In this document: positions 1-33,096 of the stretch, in pieces
How positions within the stretch are numbered: position 1 is the stretch's first letter
How the letters are laid out: each line of letters begins with the position of its first letter
Assembly: GCA_009841075.1 (NCBI GenBank)
Contig: VXMP01000075.1
Location: forward strand, 5,907 to 69,906
Source of the DNA: Acidimicrobiia bacterium
GTDB taxonomy: Bacteria > Actinomycetota > Acidimicrobiia > Spongiisociales > Spongiisociaceae
Reading direction: 5' to 3'
DNA length: 64,000 nt
The notes under the pieces: model-generated
Database searches by the model: none
What the model saw: the letters and a program-made list of their open reading frames with translations, nothing else
Told to the model about the DNA's origin: nothing
Made by a program: the position numbers and the translations under genes

Positions 1-1
1 T

Positions 2-14263: not shown

Positions 14264-14351
14264 CCGGGTAACCTCTTTGTAGAGCTAACCGGTATCCTCT
14301 GGTAGCTCTGACTCCTGAGAAGAAACATCTTGCAGAACGGTTCCTTGTCTT

Positions 14352-14645
14352 ATGCGTATCAGCCCCACCGAGACAGCTGTAACAGTTAAATCCACCGCCC
14401 GTGATGGGGAGTCGGTCGAGATCGACCAGAGCCTGCTGGCCTCCACCCTGGAGTACATTCGTCCCGCCCTCCAATACGACGGAGGCGACCTGATCCTGGA
14501 GGGGGTGGATGAGGACGGAACCGTAAACCTGAACCTGGTGGGTGCCTGCAGCGGATGTCCGATGTCGATGATGACGTTGACGGCGGGGATCGAACGTATC
14601 CTGATCGACCGGGTGCCGGGGGTTACAGCCGTCAAAGCCCTTTGA
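14352..14645 (+). CDS. NifU-like (Nfu) Fe-S cluster scaffold domain protein
   Basis: CxxC motif GACSGCPMS in a NifU C-terminal-type fold sequence. Confidence 0.8.
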   Translation: MRISPTETAVTVKSTARDGESVEIDQSLLASTLEYIRPALQYDGGDLILEGVDEDGTVNLNLVGACSGCPMSMMTLTAGIERILIDRVPGVTAVKAL

Positions 14646-14689
14646 GCCGGTAGGTTTTCGGGGGTGGCGGCCGGTTCAAGAGGTTCAAT

Positions 14690-15478
14690 GTGGTCGAAAC
14701 AGTAGGCAATCGCGCCGAACCGACTGAAAAAGACGTGGAAGATTGGGTGAATCGGGTTCGCCTGGGTGACCGACGCGCCCTGGCCCGGGCCCTGACCCTG
14801 GTGGAAAACGGCCACCCCGACGGCGGTGGCCTGGTGAAGGCGTTCGGGCGGGGCGTCGAACCCGCTTATCGGGTGGGTTTTACCGGTGCACCCGGAGTGG
14901 GTAAGAGCACCCTCATCGCCGGTTTGGTCACCCTCTTGAGAACGGAGGATTTGACGGTGGGGGTATTGGCGGTCGACCCGTCCAGCCCGATCACCGCCGG
15001 GGCCTTGTTGGGCGACCGGATTCGTTTGCAAAACCACGTTGACGATTCCGGGGTGTATGTGCGATCGGCGGCCGGGCGAGGCCACCTGGGCGGGCTCTCT
15101 TCGGCGGCACCACAGATGGCGGAGGTTTTAGCCGGGGCCGGATTCGACCTTTTGCTGATCGAAACGGTGGGAGTAGGGCAATCCGAGGTGGAGATACGGG
15201 ATCAGGTGGATTCGACCGTGGTGATGCTCACGCCAGGTTGGGGAGACTCGATCCAGGTGGGCAAGGCCGGAATATTGGAAATCGGAGACATCTACGTGGT
15301 GAACAAGGCGGATCAGGCCGGCAGTGCCCAAACCCGTCTTGATCTGGAGAGGATGATCCACATGGGCCCGAATCGGTCTTGGCAACCTCCGGTTTTGGAA
15401 ACCATAGCCTTGGAAAAAGAGGGTATAGAAGAGCTGTGGCAGGCCATCGGGGCGCACAGAAGGTTCCTCAAAGGCTAG
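14690..15478 (+). CDS. meaB: Methylmalonyl-CoA mutase-associated GTPase MeaB/ArgK family
   Basis: GxPGVGKST P-loop, ETVGVGQSE and NKAD motifs. Confidence 0.88.
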   Translation: MVETVGNRAEPTEKDVEDWVNRVRLGDRRALARALTLVENGHPDGGGLVKAFGRGVEPAYRVGFTGAPGVGKSTLIAGLVTLLRTEDLTVGVLAVDPSSPITAGALLGDRIRLQNHVDDSGVYVRSAAGRGHLGGLSSAAPQMAEVLAGAGFDLLLIETVGVGQSEVEIRDQVDSTVVMLTPGWGDSIQVGKAGILEIGDIYVVNKADQAGSAQTRLDLERMIHMGPNRSWQPPVLETIALEKEGIEELWQAIGAHRRFLKG

Positions 15479-16370: not shown

Positions 16371-16372
16371 GT

Positions 16373-16725: not shown

Positions 16726-16835
16726 ACCCTCCGGTAACGAATAGAGATTATGGATGGGTGCATCGACAACCCGGCCTGGCCGGGCGGTATAAGGTAGGTG
16801 GTGCGGATAATCAGGTTTAGAGGGCCGGAGGGCTT

Positions 16836-17567: not shown

Positions 17568-19653
17568 CGCCGGACTGGTTGAGCAGGTTCGTCCGGCGGA
17601 GGGGGCCGATCCTCTGCTGGAGGTGAGCAACCTCAAGACCGTGTTCAAGACCGACGAGGGGACGGTCGTGGCGGTGGATGATGTCTCCTTCGAGGTAGGC
17701 ACCGGTGAGGTGTTCTCCATAGTCGGTGAATCCGGGTCGGGTAAGTCGGTCACCGCTTTATCCCTTATGGGGCTGATCGGGGGAGGTCGCGGCGAAATAG
17801 CCGAGGGCCGTATCCTGTTCCAGGGCCGTGATCTGATCGCGGAGGGCGAGCGCCGCTGGCGTCACCTACGAGGCCGGGAGATGTCGATGATCTTCCAAGA
17901 CCCCATGACCTCGTTGAATCCGGTTTATACGGTGGGAGATCAGGTGGCCGAGGTAGTTCGGATCCACCAGGACTGCACCCGCGCCGCGGCCATGGAATCG
18001 GCCATCGAGATGCTGGCTCGGGTGGGGATTCCCAATCCCCGCCGCCGGGCGCACGAATATCCACACCAGTTCTCCGGAGGAATGAGGCAGCGGGCCATGA
18101 TCGCCATGGCCATGATCGGGCAACCCCGACTTCTGATCGCCGACGAACCCACTACCGCCCTCGACGTCACGATCCAGGCCCAGATTCTCGAATTGCTGGC
18201 GGATATCCGCAAGGACTACGGAACCTCGATCATCCTCATAACCCATGACCTGGGGGTGGTGGCCGGGTTCAGCGACCGGGTAATGGTTATGTACGGGGGG
18301 CGGGTTCACGAGGTGGGTCCAACCCGAGATATCTACTACCACAGCAGGGGGCCATACACCTGGGGATTGCTGGATACCATCCCTCGATTGGATCGTGATC
18401 CGGGTCTTGATCTGAAGCCCATCGAAGGTAGCGCCCCCTCTCTTATCACGCCGCCACCCGGCTGCCGCTTCGAGCCCCGCTGCCCCTACGCCCAGGAAAT
18501 CTGCCGCACTACCCGTCCCCCGCTCATCGGCAACCGGCCCGACCGCCACCTGACCTCCTGCCACTTCGCCGGAGAGGAGGATTGGCCGGATCGCCGTGAA
18601 ACCTCAACGAGTTCCGAGACGACGGTTCGGATCGGTAGGAAGCCGGGTTCCGAGGTTCTGCTGGAGATTGACGATCTGGTCAAGCACATTCCCATTACGG
18701 GCGGGATGGTTTTCAACCGTCGGGTCGGCTATGTGAAGGCGGTGGACGGGGTTTCGTTGACCATCAACAAGGGCGAAACCTTCGGTTTGGTGGGCGAATC
18801 GGGCTGTGGCAAGACAACCATGGGCCGCCTGATTATGCGGCTGCTTGCGCCCACCGGCGGTCGAATCCGGTATGCAGGCCATGACGTCCTGCGGCTCAAA
18901 GGCGGTGACCTGCGTTCCTACCGCCGAAAAGTGCAGATGGTCTATCAAGATCCGTATGCCTCGCTGAACCCGCGGATGCGCCTCCGTGACATCATTGCCG
19001 AACCGCTGCGGATTCACAACGAGGATACCCGGGCCGGGATCAGGAGACGCGTCCAGTATCTTCTGGAAGTGGTAGGCCTCGACCTCTCCTACGGGTCGAG
19101 GTACCCGCACGAACTATCGGGCGGCCAACGTCAACGAATCGGAATCGCCCGTGCACTGGCCCTCCGCCCCGAGTTGCTGATCCTCGACGAGCCGGTATCC
19201 GCGCTGGACGTTTCTATCCAGGCCCAGATTCTCAACCTGCTGTCCAACCTCCAGAAGGAGTTCGACCTCACCTACCTGATCATCGCCCACGACCTGGCCG
19301 TGGTTCGCCACCTTTCCCAGCGCATCGGGGTGATGTATCTCGGTCGGATAGTGGAGATGGGCGATCGGGAAGAGGTGTACACCCGCCCCACCCATCCCTA
19401 CTCCCAGGCCCTTTTGTCGGCGATCCCGATACCTGATCCCGATCGGGAGAAGGGTCGGATTTTGAGGCGCTTGGCCGGAGATCCGCCCTCACCGTCCGAG
19501 CCGCCCCCGGGTTGTACGTTCCATCCGAGGTGCTGGAAGGCCGAAGCCCGCTGCACCGCCGAGATCCCGGGTTTGGAGGAACGCACTGTCAACGGCTCCT
19601 TGTCCGCCTGCCACTTCGCCGACCTACTCGATTCGGAGGCGACTCACAAATGA
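17560..19653 (+). CDS. Peptide/nickel ABC transporter ATP-binding protein, fused tandem ATPase (DppD/DppF-like)
   Basis: GTG start. Two Walker A motifs ([16 protein letters not shown]), two LSGGQ/LSGGMRQR signatures and the oligopeptide C-terminal Cys motifs. Confidence 0.9.
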
Positions 19654-20639
19654 GGCAGGTTCCGGTAGGCGGCACCGGTTCGTCCGTCGGGGCGATAGGG
19701 CTCGGCACCAACAATTTCGGTTGGCGTCTGGATGCGGCAGAGGTAGGGCAACTCATCGACGAATGCGAAGAGCTCGGTGTCGATTTCCTCGATACGGCCG
19801 ACGTATACGGTGAAGGTCAATCCGAGGAATACATCGGTCGGGCTCTAGAAGGTCGCCGTGAGCGGTTTTTTATAGCCACCAAGGTGGGGCTGCCCTGGGA
19901 AGACGGCTCCCGCCCCGGGGGTCTGTCTCCCGACTACATAATCAACTCCGTGCACGGAAGCCTACGCCGCCTCCGCACCGACTATGTGGACCTCTTGCAA
20001 CTCCACGCCCCGGACGACACCACCCCTATGGAGGATACCTACGAGGCTCTGAACTCGCTGGTTGAGGAAGGGTCGGTGCGGTTCATCGGTTGCTCCAACT
20101 TCATGGCCTGGGAAATGGTGGAATGGATTCTGGCCGCCAAGGCGCAAGGGTGGCCATGGTTCTCGACAGTCCAGTGCGAATTTTCGATGTTGACCAGGGA
20201 CGCCGAAACCGAGATGTTGCCCGGCTGTCGACGCCACGATGTCACGCTGATTCCATATCGCCCGCTCGCGCAGGGCTTCCTCACCGGAAAGTATCTGCAG
20301 GGGGAGGCGGTTCCGGACGACACCCGGCTCGGTTACCAGCCCGCCGCCCGAGATCTACGGCTGACGCCCTTCAACTTTCGGGCGCTCGACACCGTGCGAG
20401 AGGTGGCGGCCGAGCTGGGTTGCACTACCGGCGGGCTGGCCATTGCCTGGCTGCTCACTATGGACCAGGTAGGTCCGGTGATAGCCGGGGCTTCCCGCCT
20501 CGAACAGCTGCGGGAGAACGCCGCTGCTGCGGATATCGTGATTCCCCAGGAAGCGATGTCGAAACTGGCCGAATGCCTGCCGCCTGTTCCGGGCGGGGCA
20601 GTAGCGCCACCCCATATGCGTACCACCTCGGAGGGGTAA
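19651..20639 (+). CDS. Aldo/keto reductase
   Basis: The ATG overlaps the ABC stop (ATGA). AKR signatures include IDTADVYG. Confidence 0.85.
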
Positions 20640-20643
20640 CGGA

Positions 20644-21498
20644 ATGGGGGTGACCAAGCTTCTCCCCGAGGCCATCCACGCCAAAGTCGGATTGGGGACC
20701 GCTCCCCTGGCCATAGAAGGCCGTCCGAATAGGCATCAGGCCGTAAAGGTGATCGAGGCAGCTATAGAGTCCGAGGTTGGTTTGATCGACACGGCGGATG
20801 CCTATTGCATCGACTCCGGCCGGGAACATGGGTATGGAGAGCGTCTGGTGGCGGAGGCCCTGCGATCCGGGTCCGACCGAAAAGGGATAGTGGTGGCTTC
20901 CAAGGTGGGTGAGTGGCGGCCGGGGGACGGTAGTTGGCAGCTGCGGGGGCATCCAAGTTACCTGAGGGAGGCTTGCGAGCGGAGCCTTAAGAACCTGGAG
21001 GTGGAAACGATCGACCTCCTCCAGCTGCACCGTCCCGACCCTGAAGTCCCCATTGAGGAGTCGGTCGGCGAGCTCCACCGTCTTCAACAGGAAGGCAAGG
21101 TCAAACATATCGGCGTCAGCAATGTCACCGCCTCCGAGCTGCAACGCGCCCTGGCGACCGCCCCGATAGCTTCGGTTCAGAACCGGCTCTCGGTGGTTGA
21201 CCACTTCGACCCGAAGGTGGTTGAACTGTGCGAGGATCATGGTCTGGTTTTGATGGCCCACAGCCCGTTCGGAGGCCCGGGTCGGGCAAATCACATCGGT
21301 CGGCATCCCGGTCTTCGGAAAGTGGCGAAGACGCTTGGTGCCAACCCGTTTCAGGTGGCGATTGCCTGGATGCTCCGGCTTTCTCCCACAGTGTTACCTA
21401 TTCCGGGTACTACGAAACCACACCGAGTAGGGGAAAATATGCGAGCGGTTGAACTCGACCTTATGAACGAAGAGGTTTGGGAACCCTTAGCCAGGTAG
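20644..21498 (+). CDS. Aldo/keto reductase (second paralog)
   Basis: IDTADAYC and LLQLHRPDP AKR motifs. Confidence 0.85.
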   Translation: MGVTKLLPEAIHAKVGLGTAPLAIEGRPNRHQAVKVIEAAIESEVGLIDTADAYCIDSGREHGYGERLVAEALRSGSDRKGIVVASKVGEWRPGDGSWQLRGHPSYLREACERSLKNLEVETIDLLQLHRPDPEVPIEESVGELHRLQQEGKVKHIGVSNVTASELQRALATAPIASVQNRLSVVDHFDPKVVELCEDHGLVLMAHSPFGGPGRANHIGRHPGLRKVAKTLGANPFQVAIAWMLRLSPTVLPIPGTTKPHRVGENMRAVELDLMNEEVWEPLAR

Positions 21499-22650
21499 GT
21501 TGCGGCCGCCGCCGGTTGCGCCATACCAATCGATGATGCGTCCGATTCCGCCCTCAAGGTCGGATACGCTCGACACCAGGGAAATCCGCAGATAGCTGGA
21601 AGCTACTTGACCGTAGGCAGTTCCGAAGGTGGTCGAAACGTTCCAGTTGACCAGATCCAGCGACGCCTGCTTCGAGTCCACTCCCTCCGCCAAGGGAACC
21701 ATTAGGAAATAGCCGCCCCCGGGCACGTCCACCTCGATCCCTCCCTCCTTGAACAGCCTGACCGCCAGGTCGCGGCGGTGCTGGTAGCTACGCCTCATCT
21801 CGCCCACGATGTCCTGCGGTCCGGTGATGGCGGCTTCCGCGGCGGCCTGGGTCATGGTCGGCAGACAGGTGACCAGCGGCTCCTGGATTCGGCTCAAGGT
21901 GGGTGCCAGCCACTTGGGTGCCACCACGTAACCGATCCTCCAACCGGTCATGGAGTAGGTCTTCGAGAACGAATAGAGGCCGAGGACGTTTTCGGGGTCT
22001 TTGCCAAAGGCGTTGGCCGGCGATCGACCGTCGAAGATGATCTCGTCGTAGACCTCGTCGGAGAGTAAGGGGAGATCATGGCGGGCCGCCACTTCGACAA
22101 AGGCATCCACCAGCCCATCGCTGAAAACCGAGCCGCTGGGATTGGCCGGGGTGTTGATTATGAGGAGTCCGGTTCGGTCGGTGATCATCGATTCAACCTG
22201 GGCCGGGTCGGGCATAAACCCGTTCGCCGGGTCGAGGGGATAGGGCGTCGGGATCGCCCCGTGCAGACGGGTAAGCATCTCGAAGTGCGGCCAGGTGGGG
22301 TCGGGTAAAAGTATCTCATACCCTGGTTTAACCAGAGTGGACATAATGAGCGAGACGCCCTGGATTCCCCCCTGGGTGATAATGATTTGGTCAGGAGTGA
22401 CATCGAAGCCGTTCACCCGGCGAAGCTTGTCGGCAATCGCCGCCCGCAGGGTTCCAACGCCGCTCGTGTCCGTATAGCCGGAGCCGGCCCGGGCCGAAGC
22501 AACCGCCGCTTCCACCACATGCGCCGGGGTGGGGAAATCGGACTCGCCGATCTCCAGATGGAATATATCGTCTCGGCCCGCAATCAGGTCGAAGATCACA
22601 CGAATCCCCGACATAGGAACGGATTCGGCCCAGTCGGATACCTTTGGCAT
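21487..22650 (-). CDS. PLP-dependent class I/II aminotransferase (aspartate aminotransferase-like)
   Basis: SFSKTYSMTGWRIGY PLP-lysine region. Confidence 0.88.
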   Translation of the reverse strand: MPKVSDWAESVPMSGIRVIFDLIAGRDDIFHLEIGESDFPTPAHVVEAAVASARAGSGYTDTSGVGTLRAAIADKLRRVNGFDVTPDQIIITQGGIQGVSLIMSTLVKPGYEILLPDPTWPHFEMLTRLHGAIPTPYPLDPANGFMPDPAQVESMITDRTGLLIINTPANPSGSVFSDGLVDAFVEVAARHDLPLLSDEVYDEIIFDGRSPANAFGKDPENVLGLYSFSKTYSMTGWRIGYVVAPKWLAPTLSRIQEPLVTCLPTMTQAAAEAAITGPQDIVGEMRRSYQHRRDLAVRLFKEGGIEVDVPGGGYFLMVPLAEGVDSKQASLDLVNWNVSTTFGTAYGQVASSYLRISLVSSVSDLEGGIGRIIDWYGATGGGRNLPG

Positions 22651-22771
22651 TAGGTGCTACCTCTCTAGGGGGGTGTTTTCATGCTAGTTGCTCTGCGCCG
22701 GGGCAAAATGTCGGAAAGGGATTTATGCAGTCCACTGTTAATCCCCGTGATACCACTGAGAGAGGCTTCTG

Positions 22772-25266
22772 TTACCTACCTGAGGCCCGATAGAGAGCGA
22801 TCAGGCCTTCATTGTTGGCGAGGGTATTGATCTGGTCTCGGATGTTGTGGTCTTTCAGGTCTAGACGAAGCAGTCGTCCATCTATCCGGTCCAGAATCTC
22901 GATTCTCCCGAAGCGGTGTCCGTGTTCTTGGGCGTATAGGGCGAGCCCTTTGGCCTTTGCTACCGAGTCGGCTAGATGGGTTCCGTGGGGATCCAGGATG
23001 TCGACAACTATGCGGTCATCGTCTTGTCGGAAGAAAAGGAAATCGGGATAGACCGGCTGGTGTTCCCCATTTCTTCGTTGGTAGGGGAGGGTGAACGACC
23101 AGCTCTTGCGGGCGGGGTTGCGGAGCCAACCAAGACAGCCGGGGATTTCTGCTTTTAGTACAGCCTCTTCCAGGTTATTGAAGTGGTCGGAGAAGGTCCA
23201 GCCCTCGTCAACGTAAACGTGTCTTCCCCAGCCTGAGGCTTCGGCGGAACATTTCCACACCACCCGCTCCGGGTACCTGATTGTTATCAGAGCCGGCTGA
23301 TCGGACGAGCCGGTTATTTCGTGGTATACGGAGCGGCGACTCTCCGGCAGGCCGTCGATTTGTTCCCAATACTCGCTTAGCCATTGCCCAACCCGATCCC
23401 GAGCCAGGTTCTCTACTCCTTCTATGACCTCTGGGGCAAAGAGCAGCACGGCCACTTCAATCTTGGCGTGAGCGATCTGCTCCACATCGTCAATGCCCTC
23501 CACCGCACGTTGCCAGAATTCGTGATGGAGACCTTCTGCGATCTTGCGGCCCGCCTCGACGAATAGGTCGTTGATATTTTCGGACGAGGCCTCCACCTCC
23601 TGCACGGTGGTGTTGACAAACCTCTGTTCTATCAGGTCAAAGACAAGGGTGCCGAAGGTGACCAGTGACTTTTCGCGTACCTTATCCTGGAAGGTCTGAT
23701 CTTGGCGCTTTTCTTCCAGCTTCGACTGAAGGAATGCGCAGATCTCAGATTTGGCAGATGAGACGGCGTACTGATCAATACCGTCGACGCCCAGCGCTCG
23801 GGCCAGGCTCATCAGGCGGCGAACCTGTTTAGCCTTTCTGTGGGTAGGAACCGTGTAGGAGGGTAACTTGGAGAGCGCCTCGAAGATAGCCGCCTTATCG
23901 TCTGCACGATGTAACGTCACCGCCTCGCCGGATTGTTCGACCTCGACCGGAGGTACGTACTCGTGGTCGGAGTCGGTTAGGCGCTCAACCACCGATTGCA
24001 CACCTTGGGCGTCGTAATGGGGAAGGAACAGCGACACCCCGTTGAGGCTTTCGTCCTGGTTGATCCGCCTGGCGAGCGGGGTTCGAACCATCCTGCCGAT
24101 CAGCTGGGCTATGTAGGTGGCGTCCTTGGCCCGGCGGTAGGACATCATCGTCTCGGCCCGGGGGCAGTCCCAGCCGGTGGATAGGGCCGTCTTGAAGAAC
24201 ACCACCCTGACCTCGCGGTCGGCGGCGATCCGGGAGGGGGCGAGGTATTGGATCACGCGGCCATCCAAATCAAGGTGGCTGGCCTCGTCGAAGGAATGGC
24301 GGAACGCCTGGTTCGGCAAGGCGGCGGAAAGTTCCTCGTTGATCGCCTGGATCGCCTGGTTCAGGTCGGTGCGCGTTCCAGGCTTACCCTTCGGCGCGTT
24401 TTCCACTTGGACAATGAAGAGAGGCACCACCGGTCGCTCGCCCTGCTCGGCGCAGTATGTCGCCCAGCGCTCGGTGTAGTCCTTCCAGTGGCGGGTCGCC
24501 GCCCGCAACAGCGTGATGTCGATCTGCTGGTCGTCGGCGCTGTGGTGGAGCACGATCCGCTCCTTCAGCAGGCCGGACTCACGAACCTCGGCCGGCTCGA
24601 CGTGTACCGGATGAACGGTGCGGGATCCGGCTACCAGATCGTTGAACCGTTTAGGGGTGGCCGAAATGCCCAGCACCAGCGGCGAGGCTCGCATCTCGTC
24701 GGTGCCCTTAAGGAACCTTTGGATAATCGTTTCCGCGTTTTTCTCGTCACCTTTGGTTCGCATACCGCGATGGGCCTCGTCGATGATCACCACAAAGCGA
24801 GCACCCATCCGTTCGATGGTGTTGTCTAACGTCTGCCAGATCGTCCACCATTTTTTGTCCCCCAATGTGGTGAGCAGCTTGTCCCGGCCCAGCTTCTGCG
24901 TGTTCAGAAAGTAGAGTCGGCCCGGGCTCAGCACCTCTTGATTGAAGGACGACTCTATGACCTCCATATCCATCGGGGTCAGAACATCGGAGGTGTTGAG
25001 CATCTTGTTGTAGGTCTGGAGGTTCAGTTCGGGCAGGTCGGTGATCCAAAGAAATATGGCTTGGTCATCCGGGCCTTGCTGATGGTCGCCCTGGAGAATC
25101 CGCTCTAGGAGACGGGTGGCGATGACCGTCTTGCCTGCGCCGGTCGGTGCCGAAAGAACCACCGCCTGGGGAGAGTTTGGGCCTGCGATCGAGGCGGCTT
25201 GACGGACCCTGGTGGTCAGGTCTTCCACCGCCGCCTGCTGGAAATCCTTGAGGACCAGCCGCATCA
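22772..25266 (-). CDS. res: Type III restriction enzyme Res subunit (SF2 helicase + C-terminal nuclease-like region)
   Basis: The start is taken at MRLVLKDFQQ (about 25266), not at the far-upstream ATG of the ORF. Motif I is APTGAGKT and motif II (DEAH) is VVIIDEAHRG. Confidence 0.8.
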
Positions 25267-27425
25267 GCCCAGCACCCCCGACCGTTGACGGTGAAGTTGC
25301 GCGAGTAATCCCAGTAGAGCCTCCGGACCTGCAAGTGCTCGGGTAGGGCCTGGCACATCTCAATGAAACCGGCCTCCGAGTTGGTGACCAGCCACACATG
25401 GGTAACAGACGGGCGTGACTCAAGTTCCTTGGTGAACTGGGCCAGATGCTGCTCGTCAAACAGAACTCCGTAGGTGGAGCCATCCGGCAGGGACCAGGGT
25501 GCGTCACCGTCCCACTCCTCGAACTCTCCAACCGATCCGGACGCCATCCACAGAATCGGGACCACCGCGTTGAAATGTCGGCCCAGCTCCACCAGGTCAG
25601 GATCCAGATAGTCGAGACGGAGGAACTCGACATTCTCTTCGAATCCGTCTTCGTAGTTGTGGTCGGAGAGGTATCGGTCGGGGTACTTACCGGAGGGACT
25701 TGTGCCATCCGACCGAATTCCCTTTATCGCGGTCTCGCACCTCGGCTTGGTAACGGCCTCAAAGATGCCCTTCGCCTCGAACTCGGCATCTCCCTTGAAC
25801 ACCCCCCTTTGAGTCCCGGCCAGCGATTTAGCATCCCTGTCGTTTACCTCGTTGTTAGTGACCAAAACACATTGACGCCGACCGCCGTCCTGGGCGTTCA
25901 GTAGTGCGGTAGCGTGGAGGGTGGTGCCGGAACCCGCGAAGAAGTCAAGAATTACCGCGTCGGGTTTGGAGACCACCAGTGCATCCAGCGTATCGCGTAC
26001 CGCGTAAAGGGATTTCGGAAAATCGAATTGACGTCCCCCCAAAAGTTCTCCTAAGAGTTTGGTACCGCCTGTACCGGCGTCATGGCGGGATCGATGCCAC
26101 ATGGTCTTTATACGACGGTCCCGAGCACCCACATATCTAACAGAGAGCACACCCGTGTCTTCATTTCGACTCACCACTTCCAGCAAACCGGCTTCGAGCT
26201 GGTCCTGTAATTTGGCAGAGAGATAAGAAATCGCCCAGGTGCGCCGTTCGGGGTCGAACTTCCCTAACCGGGCCAGGCCACGGTGGGCAAGATCAAGTAA
26301 CTTCTCGCGCCCTAGGCCCCAATTACCCAAGGATTTATCCTTACGGATAGGCCAAGCCACCGGAAATCCTCCAATGGTTAGGTCAACCTCTGGAGTGAGG
26401 AAGTTGTACTCCGAAGGGTCAAGTAGTCCTTGTTCACCCCTTTCCTTGAGGCTCTCCCCCACATCTACGATTCGGCCCTTCTTCGGGTCGATGGCAATCG
26501 GATACACCATATTCGGACGGTCGGAAGGAAGAGCATTAGTTCCACCTCGAAGTAAGGACTTCCATCCAGGTGCTTGCTTTTCGCCTGCAGTATCACCGCC
26601 GAACGTAAACAAATCATCTGGCCTTGACTCAACCCCTGCCTCGCCGAAAAAGACAAAGTGGGCATATTCCTCAACACGCGAAAAGCGCGGCTGGGTCACG
26701 CCTTTCGGGTTGTTCATAATCGTCACCATCTGGTGGTAGGCATCCGGGAACATCTCATCAAGCAGAACGCCCAAATGGTGCACTTCATGCTCGTCGATCG
26801 TTACCACCAGCACCCCGTCCGGCTTCAATAGGTGCCTGGCTAAGCGGAGGCGTTTTTCCATAAACGACAGCCACTTGGAATGGCGGTAGCGATCATTTTC
26901 GTCTACGAAGCGGTTGTTGTACTTCCACGACTTGTCGCCGGTGTTGTACGGAGGGTCGATATAGATGCAATCCACCTTCCCGGCATAGGCGTATGTCAGC
27001 ACCTGCAGGGCATGAAAGTTCTCGCCGTTGATGACCACATGGGCGGGCTTTTCCGGACCTCCCCTCCTCACGTTCCCCACCGGGGTCAGGCCGCAGAAGA
27101 CCTGTTCGTGGAACTGCTTCACCACCAAAAGGTCCTTGACGGGAATCTTGGCTTCCGGCCCGTCGGTTCCCCTCGGGATGACCGTGGCCACACCGTCCTC
27201 GACCTTCAAGACCCGAAATTGGGACAGGTCATCGGGAGTAGTGCGGTTCTGGACGATTTGCCCCGACCGAACCGGATAACCGAACACCGAAACCGTCTCC
27301 GGAATGTGCTCCTCGAAGACCAACCCGAACTGCTTGGTCTTCTTCAGTTCCTTAACCTCTGAGGCGACCTGCTCCCGTAGCGACGGGTCTTCAATCTGGT
27401 CAATCAGGTCTTCTATCTTCGCCAT
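25065..27425 (-). CDS. mod: Type III R-M Mod subunit, N6-adenine DNA methyltransferase
   Basis: DPPY motif IYIDPPYNTG, SAM-binding motif FFAGSGTTLHA, and an NPPY-class layout. The C-terminal ~66 codons look like GC-rich read-through overlapping the res start. Confidence 0.85.
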   Translation of the reverse strand: MAKIEDLIDQIEDPSLREQVASEVKELKKTKQFGLVFEEHIPETVSVFGYPVRSGQIVQNRTTPDDLSQFRVLKVEDGVATVIPRGTDGPEAKIPVKDLLVVKQFHEQVFCGLTPVGNVRRGGPEKPAHVVINGENFHALQVLTYAYAGKVDCIYIDPPYNTGDKSWKYNNRFVDENDRYRHSKWLSFMEKRLRLARHLLKPDGVLVVTIDEHEVHHLGVLLDEMFPDAYHQMVTIMNNPKGVTQPRFSRVEEYAHFVFFGEAGVESRPDDLFTFGGDTAGEKQAPGWKSLLRGGTNALPSDRPNMVYPIAIDPKKGRIVDVGESLKERGEQGLLDPSEYNFLTPEVDLTIGGFPVAWPIRKDKSLGNWGLGREKLLDLAHRGLARLGKFDPERRTWAISYLSAKLQDQLEAGLLEVVSRNEDTGVLSVRYVGARDRRIKTMWHRSRHDAGTGGTKLLGELLGGRQFDFPKSLYAVRDTLDALVVSKPDAVILDFFAGSGTTLHATALLNAQDGGRRQCVLVTNNEVNDRDAKSLAGTQRGVFKGDAEFEAKGIFEAVTKPRCETAIKGIRSDGTSPSGKYPDRYLSDHNYEDGFEENVEFLRLDYLDPDLVELGRHFNAVVPILWMASGSVGEFEEWDGDAPWSLPDGSTYGVLFDEQHLAQFTKELESRPSVTHVWLVTNSEAGFIEMCQALPEHLQVRRLYWDYSRNFTVNGRGCWADAAGPQGFPAGGGGRPDHQGPSSRLDRRPKLSPGGGSFGTDRRRQDGHRHPSPRADSPGRPSARPG

Positions 27426-27438
27426 CTAATTCCGCTGT

Positions 27439-28050
27439 TCAGTAATCTTCGTCCGACTCATCCTCGGCCAGGCCGCAGGGTTGGTCTAGGGGGTGATCCC
27501 ATATTTCGGGGGAGGACACTGCCGTAATCCCTACGTAGTAGGTCCATAACAGGCCGCCCACTCCGCCAAGGGGGCCGTCTACGTAGAGCTCGTAACTGCA
27601 ACGCATGCCTTTATCGGGTCGATCGGGGTCGTATCTGCGATAGTCTATGCACCGGTTGAGGTCGTCCCAATCCGGCCCCTCCTCCCAGCCTTTGAGGCGC
27701 ATCTTATGGCGGCTATCGGGAGGGTTCTTGTGATCCACGGCTTGCACGGCGTAGTCCAGAATCAGCCGACGGGCCTCGTCGACCGTCTCGACTATCACCG
27801 GGACGGCGGCCTCGATCAAACATCCGGTCTGGCTTTCTATCTCCACCGTATAGGCCAAACCGGCGCGGTGTTTAACCCACCGGATTGCTTCCGCCCAGGC
27901 TTCTTTCCTGGTATTAAACACAGGGCTATAGGTTGAGAGAGGCTGTCCGTCAAGGGTAGGTCGATAGCCCTCTTCGGTCCGCTCGGCACCGGGAGTCGGT
28001 AGGTTTTCAAGAGTTATTTCCCTGGATTCGTTATCCCACTTTGTAACCAT
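27439..28050 (-). CDS. Hypothetical 203-aa protein with an acidic C-terminal tail, first gene of the mod-res operon
   Basis: Co-oriented, 13 nt upstream of mod, lower GC like the rest of the island. No recognisable motifs; ends ...AEDESDEDY. Confidence 0.6.
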   Translation of the reverse strand: MVTKWDNESREITLENLPTPGAERTEEGYRPTLDGQPLSTYSPVFNTRKEAWAEAIRWVKHRAGLAYTVEIESQTGCLIEAAVPVIVETVDEARRLILDYAVQAVDHKNPPDSRHKMRLKGWEEGPDWDDLNRCIDYRRYDPDRPDKGMRCSYELYVDGPLGGVGGLLWTYYVGITAVSSPEIWDHPLDQPCGLAEDESDEDY

Positions 28051-28291
28051 GCCGGAACCCTAACGGGAGTATGGGACAGAAACCTTTGGGATCTTCCGGC
28101 GGGGACGACATTTCTCGGGAAGGCTCGGCCCAACGTTGAGCGTACAAGCTCTGTGGAAGGTGGTTACTATTCCAGGCTATGTCGGGGAGGGCTAACTGCG
28201 GGTCCGATGATTCGCCCAACGGTCTGCACCCTCCCTAGACCTGGGCTAGGGTTAAATGACCGGCCGATACCTGGAAGGAGGTAGGTCTGAC

Positions 28292-30031
28292 ATGAAATAC
28301 GTTCAGAATCCCAGCAGGAGGCTTCGGAGCGTGATCGCTCTGGTAGCGGTTTTGGCGCTGGTGGCGGCGGCATGCGGCGAGGACGACCCGGCACCGACCC
28401 CCACAACCGAAGCCATGATGGAAGAGGCAACCACCACCACTACCGAAGCCATGATGGAAGAAACCACTACCACTACCGAAGCCATGATGGAAGAGGATGA
28501 GCATGAGCATGAGGATGAAGACGAACATGCTCATGAAGACGAGGATGAACATGCCCATGAGGATGAGCATGAGGACGAGCACGAGGATGTGGAGCTGGTG
28601 GTGGCCATCGGACAAGACATCACCGTTCGCGACCAGCGCCTTCCTGGAAACTCTGCGGCGGCCTTTTCTGCTAACCGTCACATCACCGAGAGCCTGACCT
28701 TCTTCAACGCCAACGGTTCCGAGCTGATGCCGGTATTGGCTACGAGTTGGGAACAGGTCGAACCCACCCGGTGGCGTTTCCACCTGCGCGAAGGTGTCCA
28801 TTTCCACAACGGAAACGACTTCAACGCCGACACCGCCGTTTATAGCTTCGAGAAGTCTCTCGATCCCGACTTCTCTACCTGGTACGGCTTCGTGATCAAC
28901 CCGGTCATAGCCGGCGTGGAGAAGGTGGACGACTACACGATCGACGTAATAACCAACGCAGCGACGCCGCTACTCCCCAATATGCTGGCCGTGGTCGACA
29001 TGGTCGATCCCGCCTACGATGTCGGAGAGCAGCAAAACATTGCTCCGGTCGGCACCGGGCCTTACATGTTCAACGAGTTCGTACCTCTGTCGCAATATGT
29101 GATGGACCGCAACGAAGACTACTGGGGTGGACATGAGGCATACAGCCGGATCACCTGGCGGATCATTCCGGAGCAGGCGACCCGCGTTCAAGCTCTGCTC
29201 AGCGGCGAGGTTTCGGCGATCAACGCCATCTCAACCGAGAACATCGCCCAGATCGAAGGGGCCGGAGGCTTCACCATCGCCGGTTCGCCGACGACTCGGC
29301 TGATTATGATCGCCCTGCGTAATGATCGGGCACCTCTCGACAACCCACTGGTTCGCCAGGCCATGAATTACGCGGTCGACAAGGCAACCATCGTCGAGGC
29401 GCTACTACCCGGTATCGCGGTACCTGCCAACGGGATTCTCACTTCCAATATCCCGGGTGCAAATGCCGCGTCAGATCCCTTGGGTCCCTGGCCCTACGAT
29501 CCGGACCAGGCCCGGGCACTGCTGGCCGAAGCGGGATACAACGGCGAGCCGATCACCATCGCCATCGGTGCCGGGCGTTACCCGAGCGACGATTTGGTCG
29601 GGCAGGCCGTGGTGGCCCAGCTTGTAGAGGCCGGGCTTAACATCCAGCTCGAGGCGATCGACTACTCGACCATGCAGGCCGAGCTCTCCAACCGGGAGAC
29701 AGCCGCCTATGACGGCTGGCTCCAGGGATGGGGATCGTTCTACCTGTCGCCGACCTACGAGCTCGAAGCCTTTTTCGGAGGTCCGGACGGGGCACTGCCT
29801 TTGTTCTATGACAACCCCGACTACCAGACGGCGATCGAGGCCGCCATCAACGCCGAGAGCCTTGACCAGATGGTCGATCCGGCCAGGACCGCAGAGCGGA
29901 TTGCCTGGGAGGATGCGGGCGGTATCTTCTTGTATTTCCCGGTGGAGAACCTGGCGACCGTAGATTCGATGGAGGGCTTCTCAGCCCGATTTGACGAGTT
30001 CTTCTACTTCTCCGGAACTCATCTGCACTAA
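28292..30031 (+). CDS. ABC transporter substrate-binding lipoprotein (family 5, peptide/nickel type) with an N-terminal TEAMMEE x3 repeat and a His/Asp/Glu-rich tract
   Basis: GGAGG lies 10 nt upstream of the ATG at 28292. Signal peptide plus lipobox AAACG. Three 39-bp tandem repeats and HEDEDEHAHEDE low complexity. The SBP_bac_5 fold sequence follows. Confidence 0.88.
   Translation: MKYVQNPSRRLRSVIALVAVLALVAAACGEDDPAPTPTTEAMMEEATTTTTEAMMEETTTTTEAMMEEDEHEHEDEDEHAHEDEDEHAHEDEHEDEHEDVELVVAIGQDITVRDQRLPGNSAAAFSANRHITESLTFFNANGSELMPVLATSWEQVEPTRWRFHLREGVHFHNGNDFNADTAVYSFEKSLDPDFSTWYGFVINPVIAGVEKVDDYTIDVITNAATPLLPNMLAVVDMVDPAYDVGEQQNIAPVGTGPYMFNEFVPLSQYVMDRNEDYWGGHEAYSRITWRIIPEQATRVQALLSGEVSAINAISTENIAQIEGAGGFTIAGSPTTRLIMIALRNDRAPLDNPLVRQAMNYAVDKATIVEALLPGIAVPANGILTSNIPGANAASDPLGPWPYDPDQARALLAEAGYNGEPITIAIGAGRYPSDDLVGQAVVAQLVEAGLNIQLEAIDYSTMQAELSNRETAAYDGWLQGWGSFYLSPTYELEAFFGGPDGALPLFYDNPDYQTAIEAAINAESLDQMVDPARTAERIAWEDAGGIFLYFPVENLATVDSMEGFSARFDEFFYFSGTHLH
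28405..28600 (+). repeat. Coding tandem repeats (3 x 39 bp TEAMMEE(A/T)TTTT) followed by a GAnGAnCAT (His-Glu-Asp) microrepeat
   Basis: Direct reading: accgaagccatgatggaagag... occurs three times, followed by gatgagcatgag/gaggatgaacatgc periodicity. Confidence 0.8.
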
Positions 30032-30110
30032 TCAAACTTTCTGAAAGTAGCGGGAGGAGGCTAGGCCTTCTTCCGCTACTTTATGGCTATATGACCGATC
30101 GGAGCCCCGG

Positions 30111-31034
30111 TTGACCCTTCGCTATCTTCTACGAAGGTTGCTTCAGGCTCTGATCATCGTTGTCCTGGTCACGGTGGTCGTGTTCGCCCTCGTGAACGTG
30201 GTGCCCGGAGACCCGGCGTTCCTGATCCTTGGAGACGGTGCCACACCTGAGGCGGTAGCCGCCCTCCGTACCCAAATGGGGCTGGACGAACCCCTTTGGA
30301 TCCAATACTTCGAGTACATGAGCGGCATCCTCCAGGGCGATTTCGGCACGTCCGTGGCAGCTCGTCTGCCCGTGTGGGATGTGATCAGGCCGACCCTGGT
30401 TCCTACCGCCATCCTGATCGGCGCTGCGGTGGGCTTGGCGATCGTGGTGGGCATTCCGCTGGGCATTCTCGCCGGGATTAGGCGGGGGACGGCGATTGAC
30501 CGGGGCGCTCTGGTGGTCGCCCTGGCCGGACAGTCGATCCCCGCCTTCTGGCTGGGGCTGATCCTGATCTCGGTGGTGGCCTTCCGTATGGGCCTCCTCC
30601 CTACCTCCGGTTACGGCACCCCCCGGCACCTGATTCTTCCGGCCGTCGCCCTGGCCCCAACGGCCATGGGCATGTTGCTGAGGGTTACCCGCATCGGGAT
30701 GATCGAGTCGCTCGGCGAGGACTACATACTCACCGCCAGGGCCAAAGGGGCCAGGGCAGGTCGGGTCTACCTCAGGCATGCGCTCAAGAACGCGGCCATT
30801 CCGGTGGTGACGATTGTCGGGCTACAGATAGGTGCCCTACTCGGCGGTGCCATTATTACAGAGACGGTGTTTGCCTGGCCCGGAATCGGACGGTTGGCGG
30901 TGAACGCCTTGATAGCCCGCGATTGGCCGGTGGTGCGAACCATCGTGCTGTTCGTTGCTGTCGGCCTGGTGTTCATCAACATCGTCGTCGACCTCGTATA
31001 CGCCCACCTTGACAAACGGGTTCGGTTCGGATGA
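30111..31034 (+). CDS. ABC transporter permease (DppB/OppB-like)
   Basis: Six TM segments and an EAA-like loop, LRHALKNA. Confidence 0.9.
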   Translation: MTLRYLLRRLLQALIIVVLVTVVVFALVNVVPGDPAFLILGDGATPEAVAALRTQMGLDEPLWIQYFEYMSGILQGDFGTSVAARLPVWDVIRPTLVPTAILIGAAVGLAIVVGIPLGILAGIRRGTAIDRGALVVALAGQSIPAFWLGLILISVVAFRMGLLPTSGYGTPRHLILPAVALAPTAMGMLLRVTRIGMIESLGEDYILTARAKGARAGRVYLRHALKNAAIPVVTIVGLQIGALLGGAIITETVFAWPGIGRLAVNALIARDWPVVRTIVLFVAVGLVFINIVVDLVYAHLDKRVRFG

Positions 31035-31930
31035 TCGAAACCACTACGGGCGTATCGGCTGAATCCGTAGGCCGGGCTCGAATATGGCATATCCTATGGC
31101 GGGATGGCCGGCTGGCCCTGGTGGGGGGCAGCATCATCCTCTTGGTCATCGCAGCGGCGATAATCGGCCCGCTGGTCCTGTCGGTCGACCCGCTGACCCA
31201 GGACCTGCTGGGTAGGTTGAACGGGCCGGGCTGGGTGGACGGCCAGGGTGTCCGGCATCTGATGGGCACCGACCCCTTGGGCCGGGATGTCCTGGTGCGG
31301 GTTCTGGTCGGTGCCCGCTACTCACTGGTCATCAGTGCGTCGGCGGTTTTAGGTGCAATTGTGATCGGCAGCGTGGCGGGCTTGGTGGCAGGCTACGTCG
31401 GGGGTTTCGTGGATGACCTGATAATGAGGATCGTCGATGTCCAGCTCAGCTTCCCGGTTGTCCTGCTGGCGCTGGCTCTGGTGGCGATTGTGGGGCCGAG
31501 CGCCGGAAATGTGGTGCTGGTATTCACGCTGACCGGCTGGCCGATCTTCGCGCGGACCACCAGAGCCTCCACCCTGGTTCTCAGATCCCGCGACTTCGTG
31601 GACGCGGCGGTGGGTATGGGTGCCGGATCGCCTACGGTGCTGCGCCGCCACATTCTTCCCAACGGTCTCGGACCATTGACGGTGGTGGCCACCTTTGAGC
31701 TGGCCAAGGTGCTCATATTCGAATCGTCGCTGAGCTTCCTCGGTCTAGGGGTGCAGCCGCCCACCCCCACCTGGGGAAACATGATGTCCGACGGTAGGGG
31801 TTACCTCGAGTCCGCCTGGTGGATCACCTTCTTCCCGGGGATTGTCCTGGTACTCACCGCGGCCGCCACCAACTGGCTCGGAGACGGCCTGAACGCCATT
31901 ATCGATCCCAAGCAACGCCGGCGGCGATGA
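31031..31930 (+). CDS. ABC transporter permease (DppC/OppC-like)
   Basis: Overlaps the upstream permease by 4 nt and has the typical BPD_transp_1 TM pattern. Confidence 0.9.
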   Translation: MIETTTGVSAESVGRARIWHILWRDGRLALVGGSIILLVIAAAIIGPLVLSVDPLTQDLLGRLNGPGWVDGQGVRHLMGTDPLGRDVLVRVLVGARYSLVISASAVLGAIVIGSVAGLVAGYVGGFVDDLIMRIVDVQLSFPVVLLALALVAIVGPSAGNVVLVFTLTGWPIFARTTRASTLVLRSRDFVDAAVGMGAGSPTVLRRHILPNGLGPLTVVATFELAKVLIFESSLSFLGLGVQPPTPTWGNMMSDGRGYLESAWWITFFPGIVLVLTAAATNWLGDGLNAIIDPKQRRRR

Positions 31931-33096
31931 CCCGACCGTCTCGGGTAGGGTTGAGCGACCCCGGCCGGCAGCTTCTTATGCTGGGGGATCAGGTCGGAGA
32001 GGCCGTCGAACGGGTCTTGGGATCCGGGGTTTTCCTGGCCGGATCCGAGAGTGCGGCGCTCGAAGGCGAATTCGCGGCTTGGCTGGGCCGGGACGCCGGG
32101 CTATGCGTGTCGTCAGGATCAAGCGCCTTGGAATCGATGCTCTACGCCCTCGGCGTGGGCAGCGGCGACGCGGTGGCGGTTACCTCCAACCTAGACATCT
32201 CCGCGGTGGCACCGATTGTCCGGTTGGGGGCGGAACCTGCCTGGGTAGACGTAGTGCCCGGCACGACCGGCATGAGCGTGGACGACCTGGACGCCCGCTG
32301 GGATGGCCGAATCCGGGCGATACTGCTCGTACACACCCATGGCTATCCGGCGGCTGCCCAAGCTGCGGCCCGGCTGGGGCGGGAAAAAGGGGTTCCCCTG
32401 ATCGAGGACATCACCCACGCACCCGGGGCCTGGCTGGGAGGGGAGCGCGTGGGTACCTTCGGACGGGCCGCCATTATGAGCTGCGCCCCTACCAAACCTT
32501 TGGCCGCAGTCGGAAGTCTGGGGTTGATCGCAGCCGACGACACCCGGCTGATCCGTAGAGCCCGCGAGTATGCCTCATACGGTTTCGAGCTGGCCGCCTT
32601 GGAGGCGCTCCACCGCGGCCAGGCCGGGCCGCACTTCGACTACGTTACCGCCGGCATCAACGGTCTTCCTGACGAGCTTTCGGCGGCCATTGTCCGGGCG
32701 AAGCTGCCTTTAATGGATGGTTGGGCGGATCGGCGGCGGGCCAAGGCCACCCTTTACGATGATATCTTCGCCCGGGTCGGGCGGGTTCGGGCGGTGCCGG
32801 TGGGATGTCCGTCGAAGTCGGGTTCGGCACCGCGTAGCTATGTGATCCTGGCCGAGGATCGGGACGGCTTGGCGAAGGCTCTGGAGGCACGGAATATCGG
32901 CGTCTCGTATAACTATGTGCCCTCTCTACATCGTCAGCGCATCTTTGCAGCGGATGACCCGGTGGCCTTGCCTGCCACCGATCGTTTGGACGATACGATC
33001 CTCGGTCTTCCCAATGCTCCGGAAAACCGGGACGACGAAACGGAGTATGTGCTGGAAGTGCTCGAATGCTTGCTGACCCAACCTGGGGGCGGTTAG
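31927..33096 (+). CDS. DegT/DnrJ/EryC1/StrS family PLP-dependent aminotransferase
   Basis: The ATG overlaps the permease stop (ATGA). The PLP-lysine region MSCAPTKPL matches the DegT SF(H)PTKNL motif. Confidence 0.8.
   Translation: MTRPSRVGLSDPGRQLLMLGDQVGEAVERVLGSGVFLAGSESAALEGEFAAWLGRDAGLCVSSGSSALESMLYALGVGSGDAVAVTSNLDISAVAPIVRLGAEPAWVDVVPGTTGMSVDDLDARWDGRIRAILLVHTHGYPAAAQAAARLGREKGVPLIEDITHAPGAWLGGERVGTFGRAAIMSCAPTKPLAAVGSLGLIAADDTRLIRRAREYASYGFELAALEALHRGQAGPHFDYVTAGINGLPDELSAAIVRAKLPLMDGWADRRRAKATLYDDIFARVGRVRAVPVGCPSKSGSAPRSYVILAEDRDGLAKALEARNIGVSYNYVPSLHRQRIFAADDPVALPATDRLDDTILGLPNAPENRDDETEYVLEVLECLLTQPGGG

What the first reader, a model, noticed from the sequence alone, without database searches (positions are those of the whole stretch)
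25065..25290. Mod reading frame overruns the Res start by ~200 nt; a G5 homopolymer would restore a canonical TGATG junction
As given, mod has no stop until 25065, and its last ~66 codons (CWADAAGPQGFPAGGGGRPDHQ...) look like GC-rich noise overlapping the well-supported res N-terminus (MRLVLKDFQQ...APTGAGKT). On the coding strand, ...AAC GGT CGG GGG TGC TGG GCT GAT GCG G... contains a G5 run (plus-strand C5 at about 25275-25279). With one extra G the frame reads ...N G R G V L G TGA, and the stop overlaps the res ATG (TGATG), which is the classic mod-res coupling. This is either an assembly homopolymer error or a genuine slip-strand (phase-variable-like) site altering the Mod C-terminus.
Basis: seen in the sequence. 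Interest (0 to 1): 0.55.

Follow-up and report, generated by a model that had tools for sequence, protein, structure and literature searches.

The report
One-base deletion at mod–res junction
One sponge-associated Acidimicrobiia strain has lost a single C near the end of its Type III-like DNA methyltransferase gene, so the gene runs 200 bases into the restriction gene; this is an ordinary frameshift lesion, not a phase-variation switch.

Summary
On the minus strand, mod (27425..25065, 786 aa) has no stop until 200 nt past the res ATG (25264..25262), and a G5 run lies at 25279..25275.

The missing base is a C, not a G. Ten loci from 99%-identical strains all read GGTCCGGGGGTG (C2G5). They give a 720-aa Mod ending NGPGVLG, with its TGA overlapping the res ATG (TGATG). 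The window lineage alone reads GGTC-GGGGGTG (C1G5).

All 120 listed homologues stop matching at about residue 716. The 69-residue tail shows off-frame codon composition and matches no protein family.

In 72 of 76 more distant genomes the mod stop and res start overlap by 1–4 nt or lie at most 12 nt apart. None has a long overlap.

G5 is constant among relatives, is below the 9-base criterion used to call mod genes phase-variable, and occurs about 130 times in the window. Phase variation is therefore not supported.

An independent Logan assembly of SRR9841446 and an ENA assembly carry the same deletion. The window has no other private coding indel in about 32 kb. I therefore favour a genuine strain-specific mutation (about 0.65) over a consensus error (about 0.3).

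The inferred effect is an intact Mod core with a junk tail and lost mod–res translational coupling. Interest is low.

The parts
25065..27425 (-). mod reading frame as it stands in the window: 786 aa plus stop. It is a Type III-family beta-class N6-adenine methyltransferase, deposited in the public record as MYD04948.1.
   Evidence: ORF list and translation. Pfam N6_N4_Mtase. Full-length match to PADLOC MTase_III PDLC03645, residues 1-713 of the 720-aa relative against profile positions 1-705 of 709. Exact look-up of the protein.
25275..27425 (-). The part of mod that is homologous to relatives (codons 1-717). It carries the catalytic motifs IDPPYNTG (about residues 156-163) and DFFAGSGT (about 494-501), with the target-recognition region between them.
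   Evidence: All 120 listed homologues cover only 91% of the 786-aa query and are about 700-722 aa long. Conserved columns run up to F711. Solved Type III Mods 6k0w, 7dsu and 4zcf align at these motifs.
25280..25280 (-). Deletion site. This is the single remaining C of what is CC in all relatives (codon Pro716 CCG becomes C-G, read as Arg CGG plus a frameshift).
   Evidence: Alignment of the window with L001-L005 shows one gap column and everything else identical. BLAST gap listing. Tract census: ten loci C2G5, window lineage C1G5.
25275..25279 (-). G5 run (plus-strand C5). Its length is unchanged between the window and all close relatives. In the intact gene it belongs to codons CCG GGG GTG (Pro-Gly-Val).
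   Evidence: More distant relatives use non-homopolymeric codons for the same residues.
25065..25274 (-). Aberrant out-of-frame tail of Mod: 69 codons (CWADAAGPQGFPAGGGG...SARPG) plus the stop at 25067..25065. It is translated from the 5' end of res in the wrong frame.
   Evidence: GC by codon position is 0.74/0.75/0.49 in the mod frame, against 0.74/0.48/0.75 for the same DNA in the res frame. The genes as a whole give 0.62-0.64/0.39-0.40/0.67-0.73. No Pfam match. No homologue shares the tail.
25262..25266 (-). Ancestral TGATG junction. TGA (25266..25264) is the mod stop in relatives and is out of frame here. ATG (25264..25262) is the res start.
   Evidence: Read directly. In relatives the genes were called as mod ...8163 and res 8163... 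with a 1-nt overlap (junction strings).
22772..25264 (-). res: 830 aa plus stop. It has an N-terminal SF2 helicase-type ATPase with Walker A APTGAGKT and DEAH box IIDEAH. Its amino-acid sequence is 100% identical to Res of strains with an intact junction.
   Evidence: Translation. Pfam ResIII and DEAD. Weak PADLOC REase_III match. The exact 830-aa protein is found on intact-junction contigs. tblastn alignments in 70 or more genomes begin at residue 1.
25265..25708 (-). Spurious upstream extension of the res frame: 148 codons open back to an ATG at 25708, lying inside mod. The public record annotates Res as 978 aa from here (MYD04947.1).
   Evidence: ORF 22772..25708. The translation is low-complexity and non-homologous. 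The 978-aa member sits in the same cluster, where the other complete members are 830 aa.
27439..28050 (-). 203-aa ORF 13 nt upstream of mod, on the same strand. It has no family match and is found only in this lineage. It is about 90% identical between strains whose flanking DNA is about 99.9% identical.
   Evidence: no families. tblastn hits only the close relatives, at 90% identity. Mismatches cluster at 27500-28500.
26280..26636 (-). Cluster of 14 amino-acid replacements (residues 264-382) in the Mod target-recognition region relative to P0001. It lies inside a nucleotide-divergent patch at about 25500-27000.
   Evidence: Residue differences. Mismatches per 500-nt bin are 7, 25 and 20 inside the patch, against 0-2 elsewhere.

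Best explanation
This is a genuine, strain-private one-base deletion. One C is lost from the CC of codon Pro716 (CCG), five codons before the natural end of the mod gene of a Type III-family restriction-modification operon in a sponge-associated Acidimicrobiia bacterium.

**Normal state (shown).** In all relatives mod ends ...FTVNGPGVLG-TGA, and the TGA shares its A with the res ATG (TGATG). Ribosomes finishing mod can therefore restart on res.

**State in the window (shown).** The deletion moves mod into a frame with no stop for 69 codons. The result is a 786-aa Mod whose conserved core and specificity region are intact, followed by a Gly/Pro/Arg-rich tail that has never been under selection and is read from the res 5' end in the wrong frame.

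**Consequences (inferred, not shown).**
- Mod probably still methylates.
- Termination-reinitiation coupling to res is lost, and mod-translating ribosomes now run across the res start. Res output relative to Mod is probably lowered, so restriction is attenuated while protection is kept.
- Such a lesion is easily tolerated and is a common way for R-M systems to decay.

The G5 run is incidental: it is the Pro-Gly-Val codons. It is not a slippage switch.
For: **The ancestral state is C2G5.** Ten loci from 99%-identical strains, carrying three different Mod alleles (P0001, P0122, P0010), all read CAACGGTCCGGGGGTGCTGGGCTGATGCGG. Only the window and the contig SRR9841446_5469 read C1G5.

**Homology ends at the lesion.**
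- All 120 listed homologues cover 91% of the query and are about 700-722 aa long.
- The closest ones end NGPGVLG(E).
- The PADLOC MTase_III profile ends at residue 713.

**The tail is off-frame.** Its codon-position GC has the off-frame signature, and it has no Pfam match.

**Tight junctions are the family rule.** Across 76 genomes from many phyla, 46 overlap by 4 nt (ATGA, GTGA or TTGA), 3 overlap by 1 nt and 23 have a gap of 0-12 nt. The 4 larger gaps include 3 with inserted genes. None has a long overlap.

**The deletion is probably real rather than an artefact.**
- The Logan assembly of run SRR9841446 is 100% identical to the window over window 19772..32050, including the deletion.
- An ENA assembly (66,024-bp contig) carries the 743-aa truncated res call that is seen elsewhere only on the frameshifted Logan contig.
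- The window has zero gaps against L100 (15.4 kb) and against L106 and L107 (13.4 kb each).
- Over about 32 kb, its only other private 1-nt indel is intergenic, at 16803.

**The lesion is recent or tolerated.** Res is 100% identical in amino-acid sequence to Res of intact strains.
Against: - No read-level data could be inspected.
- The NCBI, ENA and Logan assemblies may all derive from the same reads or sample. They exclude an assembler artefact but not a library-specific error or a minority/majority mixture.
- Only one contig outside the source MAG was actually read across the junction. Contigs of the same strain from SRR9841447 and ERZ23491995 end before it.
- The functional consequences (Mod still active, Res reduced) are inference only.
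- The unchanged res sequence is equally what a sequencing error would give.
Confidence: 0.65

Rival explanations
1. It is a sequencing or consensus error. The organism really has CC (C2G5), a 720-aa Mod and the TGATG junction, and one C was dropped in the assembled sequence.
For: - The flanking 120 nt are otherwise identical to ten intact relatives.
- res shows no secondary decay and is 100% identical in amino-acid sequence.
- The lesion sits beside a G5 run in GC-rich DNA.
- All assemblies that carry it may share the same reads.
Against: - At least two other assembly pipelines (Logan and ENA) reproduce it.
- The dropped base is in a 2-base run, not in the 5-base homopolymer where length errors are expected.
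- The window shows no other private coding indel in about 32 kb of comparison, so the assembly is not indel-prone.
Confidence: 0.3
2. It is a slip-strand, phase-variable site. The G run changes length at high frequency, toggling the Mod C-terminus and mod-res coupling.
For: - A homopolymer lies at the frame-change point.
- Type III mod genes are the classic phase-variable methyltransferases (PMC5909438).
- By direct reading, C2G5 or C1G6 gives the coupled state, C1G5 gives the overrun, and C1G4 would give an in-frame Mod-Res fusion.
Against: - The G run is 5 in all ten relative loci and in the window lineage. The difference is in the adjacent C.
- G5 is far below the 9-base criterion for mononucleotide tracts.
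- 133 such 5-base runs exist in this window alone.
- The run is not conserved at the nucleotide level in relatives at 60-79% identity.
- It lies 5 codons from the stop, so it cannot switch Mod off.
Confidence: 0.03
3. The long C-terminal extension, or recoding across it, is functional. Either the tail is a real domain, or ribosomes slip -1 on the G5 run to make a fixed ratio of normal to extended Mod.
For: In principle a P-site Gly-tRNA on GGG could re-pair one base back within GGGGG and restore ...RGVLG-TGA. This is inference from the sequence.
Against: - No homologue carries the tail.
- Its composition is off-frame.
- There is no family match.
- There is no canonical X XXY YYZ slippery heptamer.
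- The arrangement is private to one strain, so nothing suggests selection for it.
Confidence: 0.02

Closest known systems
Type III restriction-modification systems (EcoP15I/EcoP1I type: mod followed by res)
   Same: - Mod is a beta-class N6-adenine methyltransferase, with DPPY ahead of FxGxG and a variable region between them.
- It gives a full-length match to a PADLOC MTase_III profile.
- It shows sequence similarity to the solved Type III Mods 6k0w, 7dsu and 4zcf.
- Res has the ResIII/DEAD helicase-type ATPase.
- The gene order is mod then res, with a tightly coupled stop-start junction across the family.
   Different: - Res matches Type III REase profiles only weakly (37 bits).
- Its C-terminal 300 residues match no Pfam family in the local copy, and it has no solved relative by sequence. 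The nuclease domain is therefore not verified.
- Mod is about 75 residues longer than EcoP15I Mod (720 against 644 aa).
- In this window the coupling junction is broken by the deletion.
Phase-variable Type III mod genes (phasevarions: modA, modH and others)
   Same: It is a Type III-family mod gene with a mononucleotide G run at the place where the frame changes.
   Different: - Phasevarion tracts are at least 9 bases long for mononucleotides, and their length varies between and within strains (PMC5909438).
- Here the run is 5 bases and invariant in all ten relative loci and the window lineage.
- It lies at the extreme 3' end of the gene.
- The actual change is in the neighbouring CC.
Frameshift-inactivated or attenuated R-M genes in natural isolates (ordinary mutational decay of defence genes)
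   Same: It is a single-base indel private to one strain, inside an otherwise conserved R-M operon. The likely effect falls on the restriction side while methylation is kept.
   Different: Nothing distinctive. The lesion is at the gene junction rather than inside res, so both catalytic cores remain intact.

Membership tests
Type III restriction-modification system | Mod is a beta-class N6-adenine DNA methyltransferase: motif IV (DPPY) lies N-terminal to motif I (FxGxG), with the target-recognition region between them. | tested here: met
   IDPPYNTG at about residues 156-163 and DFFAGSGT at about 494-501 in the translation. Pfam N6_N4_Mtase at 2.3e-23. PADLOC MTase_III PDLC03645 at 3.5e-143 over the full length. 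PDB Type III Mods 6k0w, 7dsu and 4zcf hit at these motifs.
Type III restriction-modification system | Res carries an SF2 helicase-type ATPase (Walker A, DEAH). | tested here: met
   Pfam ResIII at 2.5e-16 and DEAD at 7e-9 over residues 4-206. APTGAGKT and IIDEAH are present in the translation.
Type III restriction-modification system | Res carries a C-terminal PD-(D/E)xK endonuclease domain. | tested here: inconclusive
   No Pfam match in the last 300 residues at E<=1. No solved relative by sequence. The only related record is a precomputed hit to PF27151 (YagJ) on the identical Res of relatives. No structure prediction was run.
Type III restriction-modification system | mod lies immediately upstream of res in one operon, with adjacent or overlapping stop and start. 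| tested here: met
   The feature is met in the family and in all close relatives. These show a TGATG 1-nt overlap in ten loci, and 72 of 76 distant loci have an overlap or a gap of at most 12 nt. In the window itself the order is kept, but the mod stop is displaced 200 nt into res.
Type III restriction-modification system | Biochemistry: hemi-methylation of an asymmetric site, and ATP-dependent cleavage that needs two inversely oriented unmethylated sites. | not testable with these tools
   This needs methylome data and enzyme assays.
Phase-variable mod gene (phasevarion) | A simple sequence repeat in the mod ORF that is long enough for high-frequency slippage (mononucleotide tract of at least 9 bases). 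| tested here: not met
   The run is G5. The criterion is taken from PMC5909438.
Phase-variable mod gene (phasevarion) | Repeat tract length varies among strains or assemblies. | tested here: not met
   G5 in all ten relative loci and in the window lineage. The only difference is C2 against C1 next to the run.
Phase-variable mod gene (phasevarion) | The frame change switches Mod expression on and off. | tested here: not met
   The shift occurs at codon 716 of 720, after every conserved column of the family (last invariant column F711). The catalytic and recognition parts are untouched.

The most novel reading that the evidence does not exclude
The deletion may be an adaptive restriction-alleviation lesion linked to a change of specificity.

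This strain alone combines two features:
- a recombined Mod target-recognition patch, with 14 replacements at residues 264-382 and 52 nucleotide differences in 1.5 kb against almost none in the flanks;
- an uncoupled res.

Lowering Res translation by breaking the TGATG coupling would let a cell survive the moment when its chromosome is not yet methylated at the new sites. On this reading the junction frameshift was selected rather than being neutral decay.
Probability: 0.08. Interest if true: 0.4.

Novelty: already known. Interest (0 to 1): 0.1.

Why it matters
The biological significance is small. It is one more example of a defence operon carrying a private frameshift.

The practical value is for annotation. 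The public record for this MAG lists a 786-aa Mod (MYD04948.1) and a 978-aa Res (MYD04947.1). The last 69 residues of the former and the first 148 residues of the latter are out-of-frame artefacts.

The true products in the lineage are 720 aa and 830 aa.

The family-wide survey also documents that stop-start coupling of mod and res (mostly ATGA) is strongly conserved across phyla in this Type III-like family.

Tried and rejected
- **Exact-pattern scans gave nothing.** I scanned genome contigs and metagenome contigs for the junction with a variable tract (CACCGTCAACGGT N{0,4} GGGGTGCTGGGCTGATGCGG). There were no matches. These collections simply do not hold this lineage, so the result is uninformative.
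- **No within-sample polymorphism found.** I looked for it by finding contigs that carry the exact 830-aa Res or the 720-aa Mod. None came from SRR9841446 or SRR9841447, so there is no evidence of a co-occurring intact allele. This is a weak test, because it sees only assembled and gene-called contigs.
- **Other contigs of the same strain stop short.** The contigs from SRR9841447 and ERZ23491995 end before the junction.
- **Sequencing platform could not be confirmed.** I tried to read the likely source paper (10.1038/s41396-020-0591-9), but it is not held. The link of 'ENGE20-1' and the SRR98414xx runs to an Illumina sponge-metagenome study rests on my memory only.
- **G5 as a conserved Shine-Dalgarno-like element for res.** I considered and rejected this. 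The run lies 10 nt from the ATG and is not conserved at the nucleotide level in relatives at 60-79% identity. Many family members do have purine-rich GGAGG-like sequence just before the res start.
- **The tail as a real domain.** Rejected.
Full report
**What is in the sequence**

On the minus strand there is an operon of three same-strand ORFs:
- a 203-aa ORF at 28050..27439;
- mod at 27425..25065 (786 aa);
- res, whose homology-supported start is the ATG at 25264..25262 and which ends at 22772 (830 aa).

Just before the res start, the mod frame reads ...AAC GGT CGG GGG TGC TGG GCT GAT GCG..., with the G5 run at 25279..25275. From there mod continues for 69 further codons (CWADAAGPQGFPAGGGG...) to a stop at 25067..25065, which is 200 nt inside res.

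One extra base at the tract would give ...N G x G V L G TGA, with the TGA overlapping the ATG (TGATG).

The run itself is not unusual. The window has 159 G or C runs of 5 or more bases.

**What the genes are**

- **Mod:**
  - It has Pfam N6_N4_Mtase.
  - It gives a full-length match to a PADLOC Type III methyltransferase profile: 3.5e-143, residues 1-713 against profile positions 1-705 of 709.
  - It also hits the solved Type III Mods 6k0w, 7dsu and 4zcf at the DPPY and FxGxG motifs.
- **Res:**
  - It has the ResIII/DEAD ATPase, with APTGAGKT and IIDEAH.
  - Its matches to Type III REase profiles are weak.
  - Its C-terminal 300 residues match nothing in Pfam, and it has no solved relative by sequence.
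- **Classification:** I file the operon as a Type III-family R-M system whose nuclease domain is unverified.
- **Source:**
  - The window comes from an Acidimicrobiia MAG on a 73,807-bp contig.
  - The public proteins are MYD04948.1 (Mod, 786 aa) and MYD04947.1 (Res, annotated as 978 aa).

**Where homology ends**

- A search of the 786-aa Mod returned 8000 relatives.
  - All 120 listed cover about 91% of the query (89-91% for the full-length ones).
  - Nearly all are 700-722 aa long.
- The closest relative, P0001, is 97% identical and 720 aa long. It ends ...RNFTVNGPGVLG, where the window reads ...RNFTVNGRGCWADAAG....
- In an alignment of 37 relatives the last invariant column is F711, and the consensus ends NxPGxL.
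- The 69-residue tail has GC by codon position of 0.74/0.75/0.49.
  - The same DNA read in the res frame gives 0.74/0.48/0.75, which is the pattern of real genes here.
  - The tail has no family match, so it is out-of-frame res sequence.

**Which base is missing**

I fetched the DNA that encodes P0001 from five assemblies and aligned the junctions. The 120 nt are identical to the window except for one column: the relatives read GGTCCGGGGGTG and the window reads GGTC-GGGGGTG.

Five further loci carrying two other Mod alleles (P0122 and P0010) read the same as the relatives.

| Sequence set | Tract |
|---|---|
| Ten relative loci | C2G5 |
| Window and contig SRR9841446_5469 | C1G5 |

(Census.)

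The lesion is therefore the loss of one C from codon Pro716 (CCG). It is not a change in the G run. The intact genes were called as mod and res with a 1-nt overlap at TGATG.

**Is the tight junction typical of the family?**

I collected 80 loci from species-representative genomes across many phyla. In each I located the mod stop and the res start by homology.

| Junction type | Loci (of 76 scorable) |
|---|---|
| 4-nt overlap (ATGA, GTGA, TTGA) | 46 |
| 1-nt overlap | 3 |
| Gap of 0-12 nt | 23 |
| Larger gap (3 of these have genes inserted between mod and res) | 4 |

(Counts.) No locus has a long overlap. The arrangement in the window is an exception private to one strain.

In relatives at 60-79% identity the Pro-Gly-Val residues are encoded by CCC GGA GTC or CCG GGG ACA. 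The G5 run is thus a by-product of codon choice, not a conserved element.

**Real mutation or error?**

Reads could not be inspected. The indirect evidence favours a real mutation:
- The Logan assembly of run SRR9841446 is an independent pipeline.
  - Its 17,773-bp contig is 100% identical to the window over window 19772..32050, including the deletion.
- An ENA assembly with a 66,024-bp contig carries the 743-aa truncated res call.
  - That call is otherwise seen only on the frameshifted Logan contig.
- The assembly is not indel-prone.
  - Over 13.9 kb around the operon, the only other gaps against relatives lie in a divergent patch at 28033-28094.
  - Over window 1-18,500 there are zero gaps against L100 (15.4 kb) and against L106 and L107 (13.4 kb each).
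  - The one other window-private 1-nt indel, at 16803, is intergenic.
- The lost base belongs to a 2-base run, not to the homopolymer where length errors would be expected.

Against this, all three assemblies may share the same reads. Res is also 100% identical in protein sequence to Res of intact strains, which fits either a very recent mutation or an error.

I put a genuine mutation at about 0.65 and a consensus error at about 0.3.

**Phase variation**

This reading is not supported:
- The G run has the same length in all ten relative loci and in the window lineage.
- It is well below the 9-base threshold used to call mononucleotide tracts in Type III mod genes phase-variable (PMC5909438).
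- It lies after every conserved column of Mod, so it could not act as an on/off switch.

**Likely consequences (inference)**

- The Mod core and recognition region are intact, so methylation is probably retained. Relatives tolerate up to about 20 extra C-terminal residues (two loci show about 120), which suggests the end of the protein is permissive.
- The termination-reinitiation coupling at TGATG is lost.
  - Ribosomes translating mod now run through the res start and stop 200 nt downstream.
  - This should lower Res output relative to Mod.
- That would be a harmless, restriction-attenuating state.

A more interesting but unsupported reading links this to the strain's recombined recognition region. 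That region has 14 replacements at residues 264-382 and 52 nucleotide differences in 1.5 kb, within a background that is about 99.9% identical.

**Verdict**

This is an ordinary one-base frameshift lesion, or less likely a consensus error, at the mod-res junction of a Type III-like R-M operon.
- The base identified as missing (G) was wrong.
- The slippage idea fails its tests.

Noticed in passing
window 25265-25708 (- strand): The res reading frame stays open for 148 codons upstream of the true ATG, inside mod. The public record annotates Res as 978 aa from the ATG at 25708 (MYD04947.1), whereas relatives and the homology evidence give 830 aa. This is an annotation artefact that accompanies the frameshift.
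   Followed up: yes
window 25500-27000 (Mod residues about 264-382); also P0010 and P0011: The mod gene is mosaic. Against 99.9%-identical flanks, the window's allele has 52 nucleotide differences and 14 residue changes packed into the target-recognition region. Alleles P0010 and P0011 keep identical N- and C-termini but have a wholly different central third (about residues 220-590). This looks like recombinational shuffling of specificity domains between strains.
   Followed up: partly
window 27439-28094 (203-aa ORF and its 5' region, - strand): The ORF 13 nt upstream of mod has no match in Pfam, NCBIfam or PADLOC. It is absent from all 80 distant mod-res loci. It is only about 90% identical between strains whose flanking DNA is nearly identical, with two compensating 1-nt indels at 28033 and 28039. 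It is a fast-evolving, lineage-specific companion gene of unknown role.
   Followed up: partly
L024, L058, L072 (between mod and res): In three distant genomes extra DNA has been inserted exactly at the mod-res junction: 775, 486 and 852 nt. L058 appears to carry two small ORFs and L072 one ORF of about 280 aa. This breaks the usual overlap.
   Followed up: no
window about 33166 / L001 1-260: Synteny with the relative GCA_026702865.1 ends at window 33166. There the relative carries an IS481-family transposase gene (LZ_Tnp_IS481 and HTH domains).
   Followed up: no
window 14300-14323 and 15477-15590: A pair of compensating 1-nt indels lies 23 nt apart, near the 3' end of the minus-strand ORF 14285..15085. 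A short, highly divergent, indel-rich patch follows at 15477-15590. Both distinguish the window from some relatives (L101-L103) but not from others (L100, L106 and L107 show no gaps).
   Followed up: no
window 2566-3795 and 7238-8383; a third copy is seen only in relatives (395 aa, e.g. L100 19236-20423, beyond the window start): The neighbourhood holds several paralogous AAA_14/DUF4143 ATPase genes (381 and 409 aa in the window, 395 aa in relatives), together with a Fic-domain gene.
   Followed up: no
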